From: Candidatus Firestoneibacteriota bacterium
Lineage (GTDB): Bacteria; Oederibacteriota; D2-FULL-39-29; JBBTED01
Direction of reading: 5' to 3'
Length of the DNA: 44,458 bases
Assembly: GCA_038042445.1 (NCBI GenBank)
Contig: JBBTED010000022.1
Coordinates: 1 to 44,458 of the forward strand
Positions 9,001 to 15,000 of this stretch are shown piece after piece (position 1 is the first letter of the stretch; every line of letters starts with the position of its first letter). Position numbers: made by a program.

Positions 9001-12000
9001 AGAGACTCCACGTTCTATTGATTCTTTAAATGATTTTTATAAATTGATAGATTTGTATGATCAGGGAATACGTTATGCTGATACTTATTTTGGTGAAATT
9101 TTAAAAATTCTTAAAGAGAATAAAATTTTAGATGATACTGCAGTAATTATAACTTCTGACCATGGAGAAAATATTGGAGAATTAAATGTATATGCAGATC
9201 ACCTTACTGCTGATTATATTACTTGTAGAACCCCTTTTATTTTGAAATGGCCGGGTTTAAAAACTAAAAAAGTTGACTTTTCTTTTCATTATCAAGTTGA
9301 TGCTGGAGCAACTATTCTTGAATTATTAGGTATAGAAGTTCCTATTTCGTGGGATGGGAAAAGTTTTTCAAAATCTTTATTAAAGAATAAGCCAGAAGAA
9401 AGGGAATTTTTAGTAGTAAGCAGTTGTGCATGGACTTGTCAACGTTCAGTTATATTTAAAGATTGGATAATGATAAAGACATATCACGAGGGCTTAAAAG
9501 ATTTTCCAGAAATTATGCTTTTTAATACAAAAAAAGATCCACATGAAATAAATGATCTTGCATGCAAGAACCCAAAAATAGTAAAAAAATGTTTGCAATT
9601 ACTTGATAATTGGCATAAAGAGATGATGGATTCTTCTGATATAAAGACAGATCCAATGGATACGGTTATAAAAGAGGGAGGTCCTTGGCATACAAGATCT
9701 TTCGCTCAAAAATATGCCAAACGTTTAACTGAAACAGGCAGACAAGAACATGCCAAAAAAATTTTAACATGGCTAAAAGAGGGAAAATATTGGCAATAAC
9801 TGTATAAGTTATATTATAAGAGGAAATAGTTCGGTAGGTACTGTAAAAAGTTTTATGAGAGAAAATTCATAAATACTGATAAATAAAGGTTAAATCTCTT
9901 TCATAAGGGGGGAGGGAACTTAAAACAGGGGATTAAAAGCAAATTAATACAAACGCATTAAGTTTTTTGTAGTTGCCGATTTATCGGCTTTTAAATTATG
10001 CTCATAAATGAGCGACTACAAATTTTAAAATAGATGTAATTAAAGAAATAAAGAAATATTGTTAAAAACTTTTCACAGTACCGTTCGGTAAAATAGAAGG
10101 AAAATGATGAAGAAAAAAATTCCTGTAATTCTTGATACAGATATTGGATATGATTGTGATGACACATGGGCATTGGTTATGCTATTGAAATCACCAGAAC
10201 TTGATGTGAAGTTAATTACTACTGAAACTGGTAATACGACATATTGTGCAAAAATAGTTGCCAAAATACTTGAAATTGCAAAACGCACTGATATTCCTAT
10301 TGGAATAGGAATTGATTTTACGCCTAGAAAAGAATACGAACGGCAGGCACCTTGGGTTGAAGGGTATGATTTTTCTAATTATTCTGGGATTGTGCATAAA
10401 AATGGTGTAAATGCTATTGTAGATACAATTATGAAATCACAGGAACCAATTACTTTGATTTGTATCGGTCCTGTTCCTAATATTAATCGTGCTCTTGAAA
10501 TTGAACCAAAAATTTCAAATAAAACAAGGTTTGTGGGTATGTTTGGTAGCATTCGACATGCATATGGATATAAGGATAGTAAAACAATAGTTCCTGAATA
10601 TAATGTCAAAGAATATATAAAAGAATGTCAAAAAGTTTTTAATGCTTTATGGTTAGATATGGTGATAACTCCACTTGATACTTGTGGGCTTGTAAGGCTT
10701 ACAGGAAAAAAATATAAAGCAGTACATAATTGCAATGAACCACTTATTAAAGCATTACTTGAAAACTATAGGATTTGGGCAAAAAACAAAAAAGAAGAAA
10801 AATTTAATCCTGAAATTCACAGTTCAATCCTTTTTGATACAGTAGCGATATATCTTGCTTTTAGTGATGAACTTCTTGCAATGGAAAAAATTGGTATTCG
10901 TATAACTGATGATGGATATACAATTCCGGATAAAAATGCAAGACCAATAAATTGTGCGATGAAATGGAAAAATCTTCCTGCTTTTGAAGATTTTTTGTCT
11001 AAAAGGTTGGTAGAATCTGCGAAATAAAACTAAAGATTCTAATTTAAAGGAGGAATAAAATATTTATGAATTCAATACAAGGTACTGGCAAGTTATTAAA
11101 AAAGATGGATATGCATCCTTATATTAATCAAAGACCTTTAAAATTAAAGGCAGTTGAAAACCGCATTTTATATAATGTAAATAAGGGAAGGAAGCATAGT
11201 GGAGAAGTTGTTGAGACGACTTATTATCTTACTGCAAATTCCAACGAAGGTAAATTTGGAGGTATTGAGGAAGCTATTAACGCTCTTTTAATTCATGCTA
11301 CAGTTGAGCTTTGGCCAGGGACTGGAAAAGATCCAAAAAAATATAGACAACATTTATCATACCTAAAGGATATTAAATTTTTAGGGGTTAATCCAAAAGA
11401 AAAACAAGAAGCAGCTTTGATTACTATATCTACACCTTTAGAATTTTTTGATAAAGAAACAAATGGTGTTTCATTAGCCCAGTTAAGAATGGCTACTGCA
11501 AGTGAGCCTTTTAATGCATTTAGCAATTTTACTGCAAGAATTGTAGATTATCAATTCCCCGAAAAATTCAAAAAAGGATTTTTAGGGCAAATCTGGCCGC
11601 ATAAAAGAATTAGAGAATATTTAAATATAAGCGAAAAAGAACCAATAATAGGTACTATTGTTAAACCTAAGTGGCTGCCAAAAGAATTGTTTGCCAAAAA
11701 AGTCCTTGAAGCTGCTAATGCGGGAGCACTCTTTGTAAAATCTGATGAAAATCTACATCTTACAAAAAAAGAATTAGCTGAATATGTTGCTTTAACAGTT
11801 AAACTATTAGAAAAAAATGGATTTGACCTTTCTTTAAATAGTAAATCATCTAAAAAGAAATTTATTTTTGCACCTCATATCACAACAAACTGGTTTTCAA
11901 TTTTAGAATATGCAAAAATTGCTGTTGATTGTGGAGCAAATGCTTTAATGTTCTCAACACATCTTGCTGGTGATTTTGAAGTCATCAGAAAAATATATGA

Positions 12001-15000
12001 GATGGGGGGGAAATATAAAATTCCAATTTATGCTCATACTGCAGGAATGAATAGAACTACAGGAGACCCTAATTTCTCTTTTGGAGAAGATGCAAAAACG
12101 GTATATCTATTAGCATCTCTTTCAGGGTCGGCTTTTATGCAATTACCAGCTATACAGGGATATATTAAGCCAACAGATATTGAAAAACTCTCAATAATAA
12201 ATAGACTTGAAAAAGATGGACTTGTTGGCAATAACGGTATGACATTAGTAATTGCTGGTGGATTAAGCCCTGAAAATATAGGGCATAACATAAAAATTTT
12301 TGGAGTTGAAGGCAAAATGTTTTTAGCAGGAACTTCTGTTTATCATCATCCTGGTGGTGTTCAAGCAGGAATTTTAGCTCTTAAACGCGCTGCTATTAAA
12401 ACAATTACACAAGTTTGTAAAAGCTTTTTACAATAATCATATTAAATCAGGAGGGGGAAAATGAATTTTAAGGAAATGAATTTAAGAATATTTGAAGGTA
12501 AAAAAATACCGCATGTTTTATTTCAACCAAGAATAGAACCATGGTATCATTGGCATAAGCATTTTAATATGCTTCCTGAGAAATATAAAAATATGTCAAT
12601 TTTGGAGTTATTCGATGATCTTAAAATTTCTATGCGCTATTTTGATTATTATACAAATATACCTCATCCAATAGAGACTGTATATACAGACAAAATTAAA
12701 ATTAAGGAAAATTTTGAAAAAGAATATGGGAAACGTATTATTGAAACTCCATATGGTGATTTGATAGAAGTCTTAAAAAAAACTCCGGATGATACATGGC
12801 GGACAATAGATTTTCCAGTTAAGACAAAAGATGATTTAAAAAAGTTGAGATACCTTTATGAAAACACAATATATCATTTTTCAATAGAAAAATTTGAAAC
12901 AGGTGTTAAATTTATTGGAGAAAGAGGAATGCCTCAATTCTGGTTACAAAAAAGTCCATATCAGGCATTTAGACGTTGGATGCATTTAGAGGATTTTATT
13001 TATGCATTATGTGATAATCCAGTTAGTATAGAAGAGGTTATAGAAGCTATGGATACTTCTTATAACAAATTCTATGATGAAATTATTTCTTATGGCAAAG
13101 TAAAAATAGTTAATTTTGGAGAGAACATTCATGCTCACACGTTATCTCCAAAATATTTTGAAAAATATTTAATTCCGTACTATATGAAAAGGTCAAATCA
13201 ATTGCGAAAAAGTGGAATTTACACACATATACATATAGATGGATATTTTAAGCCATTACTTAAATTTTTAAAAGATTTACCATTTGATGGGCTTGAAGCA
13301 TTAACTCCTTTGCCACAAGGTGATGTGACTATTGAAGAAATCAAAGAATATATAGGTGATAAAATTCTTATAGATGGAATTCCTGCAGTATTATTTTTGC
13401 CGACTTATTCAAGGGATGAATTGCAAAAATGTGTAGAAAAATTAGTAAAATTATTTCATCCCAAATTGATTTTAGGAATATCAGATGAAATTCCAGAAAA
13501 TGCAGATGAAGAAGGGATAGAAAGAGTAAGATGGGTATCCCAATATTGTCAAAAATATTTAACAGTATAATTTTTAGATTGTATACTTGAAAAAAGGAGA
13601 AATTTTATGCAAGCAAAGAAAGATTTAAATGGAATGTGGCAGTTTAGTTTAGCAGAAAAAAATAACTGGAATATTGCAAAGGTGCCGGGTTGTGTTCAAA
13701 TGGATTTAATGGCACTTGAAAAATTGCCCGATCCTTTTTATAGGATGAATGAAAGACAATTTATTGATATAGAACCATGTGAATGGGATTACAAAAAAGA
13801 ATTTGTAGTTGCCGATTTATCGGCAAAAAAACAGCTAAATAATGCACAGATAAATTTAGTCTTTGAAGGGCTTGATACTTTTTGCAATATATACTTGAAT
13901 GATAAATATATTGGCAGAGCAGAAAATATGTTTATTCCACATATATTTGATATAACTGATATTCTAAAAGAAGGTAATAATGTGTTATTTGTACATTTTG
14001 ATTCACCAATTAAAACAATAAAAGTAATGGAAGGCAATTCACCTTATGTAATGAAAAGTGTGGTAGAAACTGCAAGACCATATATACGTAAAGCACAGTA
14101 TTCTTATGGCTGGGATTGGGGCCCAAGAATTGCACAAACAGGTATATGGAGAAATGTTTATCTTGAATTTATTGATATTGCTAAACTTGAAAATCCATTT
14201 TTTTACACAGAGAAAATATCAGACAATACTGCTTATGTCCATATTAGCTGTGAAGTAACAGGAAATACAGATGAAGATTTTAAAATAGAAACAATAATTA
14301 ATTATAAAGGAAAAAAAATTGTATCCTTCAAAAATGATGTTAAAAATATTAAAGGCAAATTTGGAATTAATGAAAAAGTAGAAATTAAAAATCCAAAACT
14401 TTGGTATCCCAATAATATGGGCGAGCAAAATCTTTATGAACTAAAATTTCTTTTATATTGCAAAGGGGAAAAAATAGATACACTAAAAATTGCTTCAGGA
14501 ATCAGAATAGTAAAATTATTACAGGAAGAAGATAAAGATGGTAAAAGTTTTATATTTGAGATAAATGGAATAAAAACATTTTGTAAAGGAGCGAATTGGA
14601 TTCCAGCAGATAATTTTATTCCAAGGATAACAAAAAAGGATTATTATGACTTAATTAAAATGGCAAAAGATGCAAATATGAATATGCTAAGAGTTTGGGG
14701 CGGTGGAATTTATGAAGATTCAGCATTTTATAGTGCTTGTGATGAAATGGGCATTATGGTTTGGCAGGATTTTATGTATGCTTGTGCTCAATACCCAGAC
14801 CAATTTGACTGGTTTCAGAAATTAGCTAAAGAAGAAGCAGTTTGTATTGTAAAAAAGTTGCGTAACCATCCTTCAATTGTTATATGGTGTGGAAATAATG
14901 AAAATAATTGGGGAAATATTATTTGGTGGGGATGTGGTGATCCAAAATTTTTTGGCAATTATATTTACAAAGAAATATTGCCAGAAGTATGTAGGGAAAA

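What a model noticed while it worked through the whole genome (the two positions that open the first line are those of the whole stretch)
11066..12436. Deep-branching RuBisCO-like protein clade in sugar-catabolic operons
g00558 (456 aa) has no Pfam row and only 25% identity to any Swiss-Prot RuBisCO-like protein, yet folds as a RuBisCO large subunit with the K-P-K and K-x-D-E metal/carbamate motifs kept. I read it as the founding member of an undescribed RLP clade that catalyses an enolisation/isomerisation step on a phosphorylated keto-sugar in a new anaerobic sugar (possibly O-methyl-sugar) pathway, working with a mannitol-dehydrogenase-family enzyme, a PfkB kinase and a class II aldolase. 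If true it adds a new function and a new branch to the RuBisCO superfamily.
Evidence so far: Pfam RuBisCO_large only 32.9 bits in a relaxed scan; Swiss-Prot best AF_1587 25.5%. phmmer over 1.84e9 representatives: 202 hits at E<=1e-3, only 8 at E<=1e-30. AlphaFold pLDDT 88.8, pTM 0.90; Foldseek top hits are all RuBisCO/RLP chains at 15-21% identity, TM 0.69-0.75. Alignment keeps K200-P-K202, K225-x-D227-E228, H271, H324, G398-G399. 41 related loci in species genomes labelled Aerophobetes, Planctomycetia, Omnitrophota, Spirochaetota, Kiritimatiellae, Lentisphaerae, Clostridia, Thermotogae and others. In the 30 loci of 5 kb or more, by blastx against this genome's proteins: a Mannitol_dh-family gene within two genes in 12 (directly upstream, same strand, in 10), URO-D-like gene in 9, P [...]
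(Added by a program. Inside this text positions count along the whole contig: contig position 1 is position 1 of the stretch shown here. "Call 12" and the like, gene names such as g00115 and contig names such as C1 are that model's own, and its searches are not shown. The text may have been shortened before it was handed on; [...] marks where a part breaks off. The agent that wrote the report below was given it as the finding of a first reader that could run no searches.)

Follow-up and report, generated by a model that had tools for sequence, protein, structure and literature searches.

The report
Uncharacterised RuBisCO-like enzyme clade
This gene encodes a very divergent relative of the CO2-fixing enzyme RuBisCO that cannot fix CO2 but keeps the parts needed to pull a proton off a phosphorylated keto-sugar, and it belongs to an unstudied family found in sugar-breakdown gene clusters of uncultured anaerobes.

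Summary
ORF 11066-12436 (+, 456 aa) is a real, highly divergent RuBisCO large-subunit homologue, with a confident RuBisCO fold and only 16-22% identity to any solved chain. It belongs to a tight, conserved family: 36 loci in species genomes, 355 metagenome stretches, Bacteria and two Bathyarchaeota MAGs.

In a careful tree the family is monophyletic (100/100) on a long stem. Its sisters are other unnamed environmental clades. It lies apart from MtnW, OiaX, the Photo-like RLPs and forms I/III.

All 103 full-length members keep the RuBisCO enolisation set (K175, K177, K201, D203, E204, H294). All have replaced the CO2-addition and distal-phosphate residues (N123, R295, H327, K334, S379).

- [quoted passage not shown] is the best reading, but it is inferred, not shown.
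- The mannitol-dehydrogenase link is confined to the other subgroup (45-51% identity) and is absent from this window.
- The window's own subgroup pairs with a URO-D-like protein (21 of 44 loci, including here) and a PfkB kinase (16 of 44).
- "Founding member", "deep-branching" and "O-methyl sugar" are not supported as stated.

The substrate is unknown.

The parts
11066..12436 (+). RuBisCO-like protein (RLP), 456 aa, subgroup A of an uncharacterised family
   Evidence: ORF. Pfam PF00016 at 32.9 bits. AF2 model pLDDT 87.8 with RuBisCO/RLP-only Foldseek hits. Family monophyly 100/100.
11663..11671 (+). K200-P201-K202, equivalent to RuBisCO K175-P-K177
   Evidence: Aligned with form I 'VKPK'. Kept in 103 of 103 family ORFs.
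11738..11749 (+). K225-S-D227-E228, equivalent to RuBisCO K201 (carbamate), D203 and E204 (Mg2+ site)
   Evidence: Aligned with form I 'TKDDEN'. Kept in 103 of 103.
12035..12049 (+). H324-T-A-G-M328: H324 corresponds to RuBisCO H294; R295 is replaced by T325 and H298 by M328
   Evidence: Aligned with form I 'HRAGH'. H324 kept in 103 of 103, T325 in 102 of 103.
12140..12172 (+). Q359 in place of RuBisCO H327, and loop-6 equivalent G-Y366-I-K368-P in place of G-K334-L-E-G
   Evidence: Q359 in 103 of 103, Y366 in 99 of 103, K or R at 368 in 102 of 103.
12254..12262 (+). A397-G398-G399, equivalent to RuBisCO S379-G380-G381 (proximal phosphate site; Ser lost)
12461..13570 (+). URO-D-like TIM-barrel protein, 24 nt downstream; the most consistent neighbour of the window's RLP subgroup
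   Evidence: Pfam URO-D at 32.6 bits. A URO-D-like gene lies within 6 genes in 21 of 44 subgroup-A loci, and within two genes on the same strand in 17. It has 'HIDGY' where MtaA has H-x-C-G.
10104..11027 (+). Inosine-uridine nucleoside-hydrolase-family gene, 38 nt upstream; probable first gene of the transcription unit; not a conserved partner
   Evidence: Pfam IU_nuc_hydro at 105.3 bits. Asp cluster DTDIGYDCDD kept. Found next to the RLP only in this window among 117 loci.
13607..16102 (+). GH2 glycoside hydrolase (beta-mannosidase-like architecture), 36 nt after the URO-D-like gene
   Evidence: Pfam Glyco_hydro_2_N2 at 177.7 bits, plus Mannosidase_ig.
9975..9988 (+). Terminator-like hairpin in the 304-nt gap before the four-gene unit (weak evidence)
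   Evidence: The number of such sites in the region does not exceed the shuffles.
6112..8281 (+). Two GFO/IDH/MocA oxidoreductase genes (IolG-like / glycoside 3-dehydrogenase-like), upstream glycan cluster
   Evidence: A GFO family gene lies near the RLP in 13 of 117 loci.
1586..9799 (+). Upstream glycan-degradation genes: GH116, alkaline-phosphatase-type phosphodiesterase, the two GFO genes, sulfatase
192..1451 (+). 419-aa protein with no Pfam hit, possibly a second distant URO-D-like protein; a homologue ends the RLP operon of locus L038
   Evidence: No Pfam or PDB hit. ESM Atlas feature hits to URO-D-domain clusters, a lead only. Clusters with L038:18183-19478.

Best explanation
The gene encodes a form-IV-type RuBisCO-like protein of an uncharacterised family. 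Most likely it is a Mg2+-dependent enzyme that uses a carbamylated lysine (K225), K200/K202 and H324. With these it abstracts the proton next to the carbonyl of a sugar derivative that carries a phosphate ester beside that carbonyl (a CH2OP-CO-CHOH head group). This forms an enediolate, which is then reprotonated or rearranged (epimerisation, carbonyl migration, possibly followed by loss of CO2), not carboxylated.

The phosphate would be installed by the PfkB (ribokinase/IolC-like) kinase that often follows the gene. The product would go to class II aldolase/GatZ-like or transketolase enzymes. A URO-D-like protein of unknown activity works alongside it.

In this window the enzyme sits in a four-gene unit (nucleoside-hydrolase-like, RLP, URO-D-like, GH2) inside a glycan-degradation cluster.

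Shown: homology, fold, the residue pattern, clade separateness and gene neighbourhoods. Inferred: catalysis, metal and carbamate use, the order of steps and the substrate. My favoured substrate classes are a 6-phospho-5-keto-hexonate (phosphorylated keto-uronate) or a ketohexose 1,6-bisphosphate, each at roughly 0.15-0.2.
For: Fold and homology.

Residues
- All 103 of 103 full-length family ORFs keep the equivalents of RuBisCO K175, K177, K201, D203, E204, H294, G380 and G403. These are the residues that, by established RuBisCO mechanism (recalled), carry out enolisation and bind Mg2+ and the proximal phosphate. G381 is kept in 102 of 103.
- The residues for CO2 addition and the distal phosphate are replaced family-wide: R295->T, H298->M, H327->Q, K334->Y, S379->A, G404->T, E60->H, and N123 is not kept.

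Neighbours, 117 loci
- Subgroup A (44 loci, 28 with at least 4 neighbours): URO-D-like 21, PfkB 16, transketolase C-part 11, GatZ-like 9, class II aldolase 6.
- Subgroup B (73 loci, 49 with at least 4 neighbours): MtlD-like 21, ManA-type PMI 16, PfkB 12, uronate-isomerase-like 11, URO-D-like 10, class II aldolase 8.

Model operon L083: the RLP stop codon overlaps the PfkB start by 4 nt, and PfkB abuts the URO-D-like gene. It also holds GatZ-like, split transketolase, two Zn-ADH, an SDR, a class II aldolase, an isomerase and XylB (502 bits against a 380-bit cut-off).

The partner of 437 aa with no Pfam hit has a uronate-isomerase fold.

Precedent: the named OiaX RLP of R. etli lies next to a sugar-acid kinase in the same way.
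Against: - No biochemical data exist for any member.
- Neighbourhoods are heterogeneous, and no partner is present in more than about half of the loci. Many loci are short contigs.
- This window has no PfkB, aldolase or transketolase gene. Its immediate upstream neighbour, a nucleoside-hydrolase-like gene, is unique to it.
- Loci from related MAGs and metagenomes are not independent.
- Residue equivalences come from sequence alignment, not from a solved structure.
- The role of the URO-D-like partner is unknown.
- Named references for the IV-Aful, IV-AMC, IV-GOS and IV-DeepYkr clades were not available for the tree.
Confidence: 0.6

Rival explanations
1. It is a beta-keto-acid decarboxylase or transcarboxylase of the OiaX type. 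It acts on a phosphorylated keto-sugar acid derived from uronates or inositol and yields a pentulose phosphate. This is a special case of the enolisation reading, with CO2 loss as the outcome.
For: - Uronate-isomerase-like partner in 11 of 73 subgroup-B loci.
- IolC-like PfkB, IolM-like Zn-ADH, IolG-like GFO and AP_endonuc_2 genes nearby.
- Xylulokinase and transketolase in the subgroup-A model operon, suggesting a C5 product.
- An OMP-decarboxylase/HUMPS-family gene two genes away in L016.
- The distal phosphate site is lost.
- OiaX shows that an RLP can decarboxylate (annotation; chemistry recalled).
Against: - OiaX model score is 37 bits against a 700-bit cut-off, and the family is far from the OiaX clade in the tree.
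- No DUF1537-type acid-sugar kinase was seen among the annotated neighbours.
- The URO-D-like partner could itself be the decarboxylase.
- The uronate-isomerase-like gene is not near the RLP in subgroup A or in this window.
Confidence: 0.15
2. It is a bona fide CO2-fixing RuBisCO (form III-like) working in nucleoside salvage. This is suggested by the nucleoside-hydrolase-family gene directly upstream.
For: - K175, K177, K201, D203, E204 and H294 equivalents are kept.
- The top Foldseek hits include form III enzymes.
- An IU_nuc_hydro gene lies 38 nt upstream.
- A PRK/uridine-kinase-family gene lies near the RLP in 3 loci.
Against: - N123, R295, H327, K334, S379, E60 and T65 equivalents are replaced in the whole family.
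- TIGR03326 scores 74.5 bits against a 497-bit cut-off.
- The family is separated from forms I/III in the tree.
- The nucleoside-hydrolase neighbour occurs in 1 of 117 loci.
- No AMP phosphorylase or ribose-1,5-bisphosphate isomerase was seen among the neighbours.
Confidence: 0.03
3. It is the methionine-salvage enolase MtnW (2,3-diketo-5-methylthiopentyl-1-phosphate enolase), as some database records name family members.
For: Two family clusters carry that name in public records. The best solved-structure sequence hits include MtnW chains at E about 1e-10.
Against: - NF007095 scores 65.9 bits against a 409-bit cut-off, and TIGR03332 scores 53.9 against 513.6.
- The tree puts the family apart from the MtnW-labelled clade.
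- No methionine-salvage genes were seen among the neighbours in 117 loci.
- The same genome already has an MtnW-like paralogue on contig C11.
Confidence: 0.03
4. It works with corrinoid-dependent URO-D/MtaA-type methyltransferases in the catabolism of O-methylated sugars.
For: - URO-D-like genes are the commonest neighbour in subgroup A and score weakly as MtaA/CmuA.
- A corrinoid-binding protein lies beside the URO-D-like gene in L088, with a cluster-mate in L063.
- A corrinoid reductive activator (RACo) lies in L016.
- GH30 and esterase genes flank the RLP in L030.
Against: - The corrinoid-protein cluster occurs at 2 of 117 loci.
- The Cys of the H-x-C-G zinc motif is present in 5 of 14 URO-D-like neighbours and is Asp in the window's copy.
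- No corrinoid protein or pterin methyltransferase is in the window.
- The idea gives the RLP itself no defined step.
Confidence: 0.1
5. It is a non-catalytic or regulatory RuBisCO-fold protein.
For: Some RLPs (IV-Photo) still have no assigned reaction (recalled; mentioned in the passages read).
Against: The metal, carbamate and base residues are strictly conserved in 103 of 103 members across Bacteria and Archaea. The gene is embedded in an operon, with translational coupling to a kinase.
Confidence: 0.04

Closest known systems
OiaX-type RLP, 3-oxo-isoapionate-4-phosphate decarboxylase (D-apiose/acid-sugar catabolism); reference here: R. etli p42f oiaX, L051
   Same: Both are RuBisCO-fold RLPs with the K-x-D-E metal site. 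Both are encoded in a sugar-catabolic operon directly beside the kinase that puts a phosphate next to the substrate's carbonyl. Neither is a carboxylase.
   Different: - The kinase family differs: four-carbon acid-sugar kinase there, PfkB here.
- The NF042437 score is 37 bits against a 700-bit cut-off.
- The two lie in separate, well-supported clades.
- In the alignment OiaX has 'VKPA', so it lacks the second Lys of K-P-K, which this family keeps.
MtnW/YkrW RLP, 2,3-diketo-5-methylthiopentyl-1-phosphate enolase (PDB 2oek, 2zvi; P0108 here)
   Same: These are the best sequence matches among solved structures. Both share the fold and the K201/D203/E204/H294 equivalents, and an enolase-type reaction on a 1-phospho-2-keto compound (recalled).
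   Different: - The score is 65.9 bits against a 409-bit cut-off.
- The clades are separate.
- MtnW has 'FKG' (no K177), while this family keeps K-P-K.
- No methionine-salvage context was found.
Form III RuBisCO (P. horikoshii 2d69/2cwx, T. kodakarensis 3a12)
   Same: These are the top structural matches (TM 0.70-0.73). The 'GTIVKPK' and 'KxDEN' motifs are identical, and the H294 equivalent is kept.
   Different: The family lacks the N123, R295, H298, H327, K334 and S379 equivalents. It has a roughly 45-residue N-terminal extension with an invariant H-P-Y motif and an insertion after the K-x-D-E helix. Identity is 20-22%.
Unnamed environmental RLP clades: 'SIS' (P0048, P0049, P0056, P0077, P0081) and 'N9' (P0010 to P0021, P0060)
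   Same: These are the nearest relatives in the tree: sister at 96/93, and the next clade out at 100/99. All are known only from metagenomes or MAGs under generic names.
   Different: Identity is only 28-34%. They have Cys at the K177 position ('KPC') and Asn or Gly at the R295 position. The family's own stem is 1.40 substitutions per site.
Rhodospirillum rubrum-type RLP, 5-methylthioribulose-1-phosphate 1,3-isomerase (IV-DeepYkr)
   Same: It is a precedent that an RLP can move a carbonyl along a sugar phosphate by successive enolisations (recalled from Erb et al. 2012, cited in the passages). This is the kind of reaction proposed here.
   Different: No named DeepYkr sequence was available to me, so the relationship was not tested. 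The MtnW-like group in my tree, which may include it, is distant from the family.

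Membership tests
RuBisCO large-subunit superfamily (Pfam PF00016 fold) | Significant sequence match to the catalytic-domain model | tested here: met
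   32.9 bits against a 30.1-bit cut-off, residues 183-442. All 39 PDB sequence hits are RuBisCO or RLP chains.
RuBisCO large-subunit superfamily (Pfam PF00016 fold) | N-terminal alpha/beta domain plus C-terminal TIM barrel fold | tested here: met
   AF2 model pLDDT 87.8, pTM 0.90. Foldseek gives only RuBisCO or RLP chains among those listed, TM 0.66-0.75.
Bona fide RuBisCO (forms I-III) | Carbamate and metal site K201, D203, E204 plus K175, K177, H294 | tested here: met
   K225, D227, E228, K200, K202 and H324 are kept in 103 of 103.
Bona fide RuBisCO (forms I-III) | Carboxylation and RuBP-binding residues N123, R295, H327, K334, S379, E60, T65 | tested here: not met
   Replaced by T325, Q359, Y366, A397, H77 and L82; N123 is not kept. 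The list of defining residues is recalled from the RuBisCO literature.
Bona fide RuBisCO (forms I-III) | Score above the NCBIfam cut-offs for form III, form II or the large subunit | tested here: not met
   74.5 against 497; 28.8 against 489; 66.7 against 438.
RuBisCO-like proteins (form IV, RLP) in the broad sense | Superfamily member lacking residues essential for carboxylation | tested here: met
   See the rows above.
MtnW/YkrW enolase | Equivalog model score, and placement in the MtnW clade | tested here: not met
   65.9 against 409 and 53.9 against 513.6. Outside the clade holding P0108, which is itself above the MtnW cut-off (tree).
OiaX 3-oxo-isoapionate-4-phosphate decarboxylase | Equivalog model score, clade membership, and an adjacent four-carbon acid-sugar kinase | tested here: not met
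   37.3 against 700. Outside the clade holding R. etli OiaX. No such kinase was seen among the annotated neighbours.
IV-Photo / IV-NonPhoto RLPs | Clade membership with C. tepidum- or R. palustris-type RLPs | tested here: not met
   P0001 scores only 24 bits to 1ykw and 22 bits to 2qyg. The Photo-like clade (P0091 scores 176 bits to 1ykw; Thiodictyon RLP L050) is distant in the tree.
IV-DeepYkr, IV-Aful, IV-AMC, IV-GOS/EnvOnly RLP clades | Clade membership with the named reference sequences | not testable with these tools
   No named reference sequences could be fetched, and the Tabita reviews are not held. Indirect evidence: no protein outside the family exceeds 34% identity among 1.84 billion representatives. 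All names listed among the top 120 family clusters are MAG or generic names.
Form 'IV-like' phage/Beckwithbacteria clade (Jaffe et al. 2019) | Occurrence on phage contigs | tested here: not met
   0 relatives among viral contigs. The clade description was read as passages. No sequence comparison was possible.

The most novel reading that the evidence does not exclude
The family catalyses a reaction new to the RuBisCO superfamily, as the core of an undescribed anaerobic route together with its conserved URO-D-like partner and an IolC-like PfkB kinase. In that route a keto-uronate/5-keto-hexonate (or a rare ketohexose) is phosphorylated next to its carbonyl. RuBisCO-type enolisation then epimerises it, shifts its carbonyl or decarboxylates it, so that class II aldolase or transketolase can cleave it. 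Because the family keeps the complete enolisation apparatus of RuBisCO (K-P-K, carbamate Lys, H294) but none of the carboxylation residues, it would also be a natural model of the pre-carboxylase state of the enzyme.
Probability: 0.2. Interest if true: 0.8.

Novelty: new variant of a known kind. Interest (0 to 1): 0.6.

Why it matters
RuBisCO-like proteins are the non-carboxylating relatives from which CO2-fixing RuBisCO is thought to have arisen. Only a handful of their reactions are known: methionine-salvage enolase and isomerase, and apiose-pathway decarboxylase and transcarboxylase.

This family is widespread in uncultured anaerobes of sediments and groundwater and occurs in two domains. 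Its residue pattern is unusual: the full enolisation set with K-P-K is kept, while all carboxylation and distal-phosphate residues are replaced. It has reproducible operon partners, two of which are themselves families without assigned function: URO-D-like proteins, and a uronate-isomerase-like protein with no Pfam model.

Assigning its reaction would add a branch of function to the superfamily. It would probably reveal a missing step in anaerobic sugar, polyol or uronate breakdown. It would also correct database names such as 'ribulose-bisphosphate carboxylase large chain' or 'DK-MTP-1-P enolase' that could mislead carbon-fixation surveys.

Tried and rejected
- Locus scan with the single protein found nothing. 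The allowed second scan with the family alignment worked.
- Viral contigs: 0 relatives.
- Rfam: no family at gathering score in the whole window. Only two chance-level hits in the 9750-10150 gap, so no riboswitch clue.
- Promoter scan: 52 sites against 39 +/- 6 in shuffles, uninformative in 30% GC DNA. Terminator-like sites did not exceed the shuffles.
- Composition: the RLP region (GC 0.30-0.31) is like the rest of the window, so there is no island signal.
- Sequencing runs: no RNA holder listed.
- First IQ-TREE run: I had taken the wrong ORF as the genome's paralogue (branch length 4.25), so that tree is discarded. The corrected set gave.
- The careful tree uses 50 rows picked from 114. Fragments and fused proteins longer than 520 aa were left out.
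- My first neighbour count dropped L043 and L048, because longer antisense ORFs displaced the RLP there. It also mislabelled L025 and L035 as PMI fusions. Both errors were corrected.
- Single-linkage clustering merged SIS, RpiR and transketolase ORFs. I re-clustered more strictly.
- Tabita et al. reviews (PMC2168653, PMC2606765) are not held, so the named clade residue tables could not be compared.
- Literature: seven searches and passages of six papers gave nothing on this clade. Supplementary trees and tables of those papers were not opened and may contain members.
- The 357-aa and 419-aa neighbour families have no Pfam, NCBIfam or PDB match. An ESM Atlas lead points to URO-D for the 419-aa one.
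- Considered and rejected: carboxylase, MtnW, and a mobile-element origin. The window carries the dcw cluster, pst operon, dxr and ispG.
- No complex prediction was run, because I do not claim binding.

Full report
**1. The observation**

The window has an ATG-initiated ORF at 11066-12436 on the + strand, 456 aa.
- It matches Pfam RuBisCO_large at 32.9 bits (E 5.5e-8, residues 183-442), just above the 30.1-bit cut-off.
- NCBIfam gives only far-sub-threshold hits: type III RuBisCO 74.5 against 497, large subunit 66.7 against 438, MtnW 65.9 against 409, OiaX 37.3 against 700.
- Against solved structures, all 39 sequence hits are RuBisCO or RLP chains, the best being 3fk4 at 7.9e-11.
- An AlphaFold2 model built on a 28-sequence family alignment has pLDDT 87.8 and pTM 0.90.
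- All listed Foldseek PDB hits are RuBisCO or RLP chains at 16-22% identity and TM 0.66-0.75.

Only the 'no Pfam row' remark is not reproduced, and the Swiss-Prot figure could not be checked.

**2. The family**

At the 90%-identity level, 231 clusters match at E<=1e-5 among the 8000 candidates scored. The 120 listed are all at least 45% identical. They fall into two subgroups.
- Subgroup A (60-71% identity to the window protein): names seen are WS2, Aerophobetes, Bathyarchaeia and Omnitrophica MAGs.
- Subgroup B (45-51%): Omnitrophota, Clostridiales, Lentisphaerae, Spirochaetia, Kiritimatiellae and Verrucomicrobia MAGs.

Names in public records are generic: 'RuBisCO large subunit C-terminal-like domain-containing protein', 'ribulose-bisphosphate carboxylase large chain', 'hypothetical', and twice 'DK-MTP-1-P enolase'.

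The species-genome collection holds 36 loci, all MAGs, including two Bathyarchaeota contigs at 66% identity. The metagenome collection holds 355 stretches that encode relatives, of which 80 were kept. Viral contigs hold none.

Among 40 genomes of the same class or phylum as the window's genome, none has an orthologue; the best match is 28% identity. The window's genome has a second, MtnW-like RLP on contig C11. The distribution is therefore patchy. The local GC content (0.30-0.31) does not differ from the rest of the window.

**3. Phylogenetic position**

I ran FastTree on 114 rows and a careful IQ-TREE search (LG+C20+F+G4 by PMSF, 50 rows, 455 columns). The rows were the full-length hits plus labelled references. 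The references were P0108 (above the MtnW cut-off), P0097 and P0128 (above the form III cut-off), and R. etli OiaX, Afipia form I, a Thiodictyon RLP from a photosynthesis gene cluster, and two RLPs next to acid-sugar kinases.
- The family is monophyletic at 100/100 on a stem of 1.40 substitutions per site.
- Its sister (96/93) is a five-member clade known only from metagenomes, one member being a Sedimentisphaerales MAG protein.
- The next clade out (100/99) has nine members and is equally unnamed.
- All labelled clades (OiaX, MtnW-like, forms I/III, Photo-like) lie elsewhere.

The tree is unrooted, so 'deep-branching' cannot be claimed. 'Highly divergent and separate' can. Named references for IV-Aful, IV-AMC, IV-GOS and DeepYkr could not be obtained. 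No protein outside the family exceeds 34% identity, so the family is not simply one of those clades under another name unless that clade is the family itself.

**4. Active-site anatomy**

I aligned the family with form I, form III and MtnW and counted over 103 full-length family ORFs from 117 loci.

Kept:
- K200-P-K202 (RuBisCO K175, K177), 103 of 103.
- K225, D227, E228 (K201, D203, E204), 103 of 103.
- H324 (H294), 103 of 103.
- G398 (G380), 103 of 103.
- G399 (G381), 102 of 103.
- G422 (G403), 103 of 103.
- W83 (W66), 102 of 103.

Replaced:
- R295 by T325 (102 of 103).
- H298 by M328.
- H327 by Q359 (103 of 103).
- K334 by Y366, with K or R two residues later.
- S379 by A397.
- G404 by T423.
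- E60 by H77.
- T65 by L82.
- N123 is not kept; the region instead carries an invariant E147 followed by P148 (97 of 103).

By the established RuBisCO mechanism (recalled), the kept residues are those of the enolisation half-reaction and the proximal phosphate site. The lost ones serve CO2 addition and the distal phosphate. The sister clades have Cys at the K177 position. Family-specific features are an N-terminal extension of about 45 residues with invariant H17-P-Y19, N39 and R42, and an insertion after the K-x-D-E helix.

**5. Surroundings in the window**

All genes from 192 to 44458 are on the + strand.
- Upstream lie a 419-aa unknown, GH116, an alkaline-phosphatase-type phosphodiesterase, two GFO/IDH/MocA oxidoreductases and a sulfatase.
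- A 304-nt gap with a weak terminator-like hairpin follows.
- Then comes a tight block: nucleoside-hydrolase-family gene 10104-11027, RLP, URO-D-like gene 12461-13570 and GH2 13607-16102, with gaps of 38, 24 and 36 nt.
- Downstream are a CDF transporter, PhoB/PhoR, a porin, pstSCAB-phoU, dxr, rseP, ispG and the dcw cell-wall cluster. This is ordinary chromosome.

The window contains no Mannitol_dh, PfkB or aldolase gene. The genome has one Mannitol_dh gene and one uronate-isomerase-like gene, both on other contigs.

**6. Conserved neighbours**

I called ORFs in 117 loci (36 genome loci, 80 metagenome loci and the window) and clustered them by blastp. I named clusters by Pfam or NCBIfam scans of representatives. 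Counts are within six genes of the RLP; in brackets, within two genes on the same strand.

Subgroup A, the window's (44 loci, 28 with at least four neighbours):
- URO-D-like 21 (17).
- PfkB 16 (14).
- Transketolase C-part 11.
- GatZ-like 9.
- Zn-ADH 7.
- SftI-like isomerase 7.
- GFO 6, SDR 6, class II aldolase 6, SIS 6.
- MtlD-like 0, PMI 0.

Subgroup B (73 loci, 49 with at least four neighbours):
- MtlD-like Mannitol_dh 21 (15).
- ManA-type PMI 16 (16).
- PfkB 12.
- Uronate-isomerase-like 11.
- URO-D-like 10.
- Transketolase C-part 9.
- Class II aldolase 8.

A recurrent subgroup-A operon (L062, L082, L083) contains, in order: a GmhA-like SIS gene, PDH-E1-like alpha and beta genes, GatZ-like, split transketolase, two Zn-ADH, an SDR (sorbitol-6-P dehydrogenase-like), the RLP, PfkB, URO-D-like, class II aldolase, an SftI-like isomerase and XylB. 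The RLP stop codon overlaps the PfkB start.

The 437-aa partner with no Pfam hit is a divergent uronate isomerase. Its profile matches 4i6v at 2.9e-32 and BH0493 at 3.5e-14. Its model matches 4i6v, TM0064 and BH0493 with D-fructuronate.

Caveats: many contigs are short, related samples are not independent, and no partner is universal.

**7. How it most likely works**

Every characterised member of this superfamily (recalled) acts on a compound with a phosphate ester beside a carbonyl, and starts by making an enediolate at a Mg2+ site held by a carbamylated Lys. This family keeps exactly that machinery and is most often followed by a PfkB kinase. Relatives of that kinase (IolC, PfkB/LacC, ketohexokinase) phosphorylate the CH2OH next to, or at the far end from, a keto group.

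I therefore read the RLP as acting on the kinase's product. It would epimerise that product, move its carbonyl or trigger decarboxylation, so that class II aldolase/GatZ-like or transketolase enzymes can cleave it.

Two substrate classes fit the partners.
- A 6-phospho-5-keto-hexonate (phosphorylated keto-uronate). This fits the uronate isomerase, the Mannitol_dh family, the IolG/IolM/IolC/IolJ-like set and XylB, and it could explain the loss of the distal phosphate site.
- A ketohexose 1,6-bisphosphate. This fits the GatZ/GatY-like, polyol-phosphate dehydrogenase-like and ManA partners.

Neither is shown.

The URO-D-like partner may be a decarboxylase or a methyltransferase. The methyltransferase reading is weak: the zinc-motif Cys is present in 5 of 14 copies, and my ORF clustering found the corrinoid-protein cluster at 2 of 117 loci. 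In this window the local context (nucleoside-hydrolase-like, GH2) is atypical and adds no substrate clue.

**8. Comparison with the known, and novelty**

It works like the enolase/isomerase/decarboxylase RLPs (MtnW, the R. rubrum isomerase, OiaX). It is not a member of MtnW, OiaX, the Photo-like clade or forms I-III by score, tree or context. Seven full-text searches and passages of six papers gave no description of this clade. The supplements of those papers were not read.

I rate it a new variant of a known kind. It is a real, widespread, uncharacterised RLP family with a distinctive residue signature and reproducible partners. Interest is moderate to high (0.6), because the reaction is unknown but directly testable. 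New RLP functions in sugar catabolism have precedents. The proposed pathway partners do not apply to this window's subgroup. 'Deep-branching' is unproven.

Noticed in passing
G000 contig C11, locus L012:1456-2763 (-): The same genome carries a second RLP (435 aa; Pfam RuBisCO_large 166 bits). It groups with the MtnW-like clade and is flanked by an HMGL-like (homocitrate/isopropylmalate-synthase-type) gene and cstA, not by methionine-salvage genes.
   Followed up: partly
L039:4348-5661, L038:8621-9970, L027:12695-14026 and 5 more: A protein family of about 440 aa with no Pfam or NCBIfam hit is a divergent uronate isomerase/amidohydrolase. It has an N-terminal D-x-H-x-H motif, its profile hits 4i6v and BH0493, and its model matches TM0064. 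It lies near the RLP in 11 of 73 subgroup-B loci.
   Followed up: yes
L038:5056-19478 (Clostridia MAG): One operon carries four URO-D-like paralogues plus a fifth distant one (a homologue of window 192-1451). It also holds two copies of a 357-aa family with no match anywhere, alongside GH38, GH4 (alpha-galactosidase model above cut-off), the RLP, PfkB and an MtlD-like gene.
   Followed up: partly
L088:13547-14200 and L063; L016:14883-16817: A corrinoid-binding protein (B12-binding plus B12-binding_2) sits beside URO-D-like genes in L088. Its cluster-mate lies in the RLP locus L063. A corrinoid reductive activator (RACo) lies five genes from the RLP in a Bathyarchaeota contig.
   Followed up: partly
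L015, L016 (Bathyarchaeota MAG contigs): Archaeal-labelled contigs carry family members 66% identical to the bacterial window protein. This is either recent cross-domain transfer or a binning error. L016 also holds HypD and an intein-containing gene.
   Followed up: no
L049:10031-11424: The RLP of this Spirochaetota locus is split over three reading frames, so it is a pseudogene or an assembly error.
   Followed up: partly
L037:1-2379: The ManA-type PMI and the RLP lie in one uninterrupted 792-aa ORF, a possible gene fusion.
   Followed up: no
L019, L071, L072 (positions about 11400-15300): In three subgroup-A loci the RLP is followed by a 611-aa TPR/beta-propeller/Yip1-like protein and a DUF5696 protein. 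It is preceded on the opposite strand by an aldo-keto reductase with a 4Fe-4S dicluster domain, a PRK/uridine-kinase-family protein and a HIT protein. This context is quite different from the sugar operons.
   Followed up: no
window 192-1451: A 419-aa ORF has no Pfam, NCBIfam or PDB hit. ESM Atlas features point to URO-D-domain clusters (lead only).
   Followed up: partly
window 6112-8281: Two adjacent GFO/IDH/MocA genes overlap by 20 nt. They have weak hits to levoglucosan dehydrogenase and glycoside/disaccharide 3-dehydrogenase models, which hints at oxidative (3-keto) glycoside cleavage in this cluster.
   Followed up: no
window 12034-12315 (-): A 93-aa antisense ORF lies inside the RLP gene. 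It has no supporting evidence and is most likely spurious.
   Followed up: no
window 17588-25871: A complete phosphate-starvation module (phoB, phoR, porin O/P-like, pstS, pstC, pstA, pstB, phoU) lies directly downstream of the glycan/RLP cluster.
   Followed up: no
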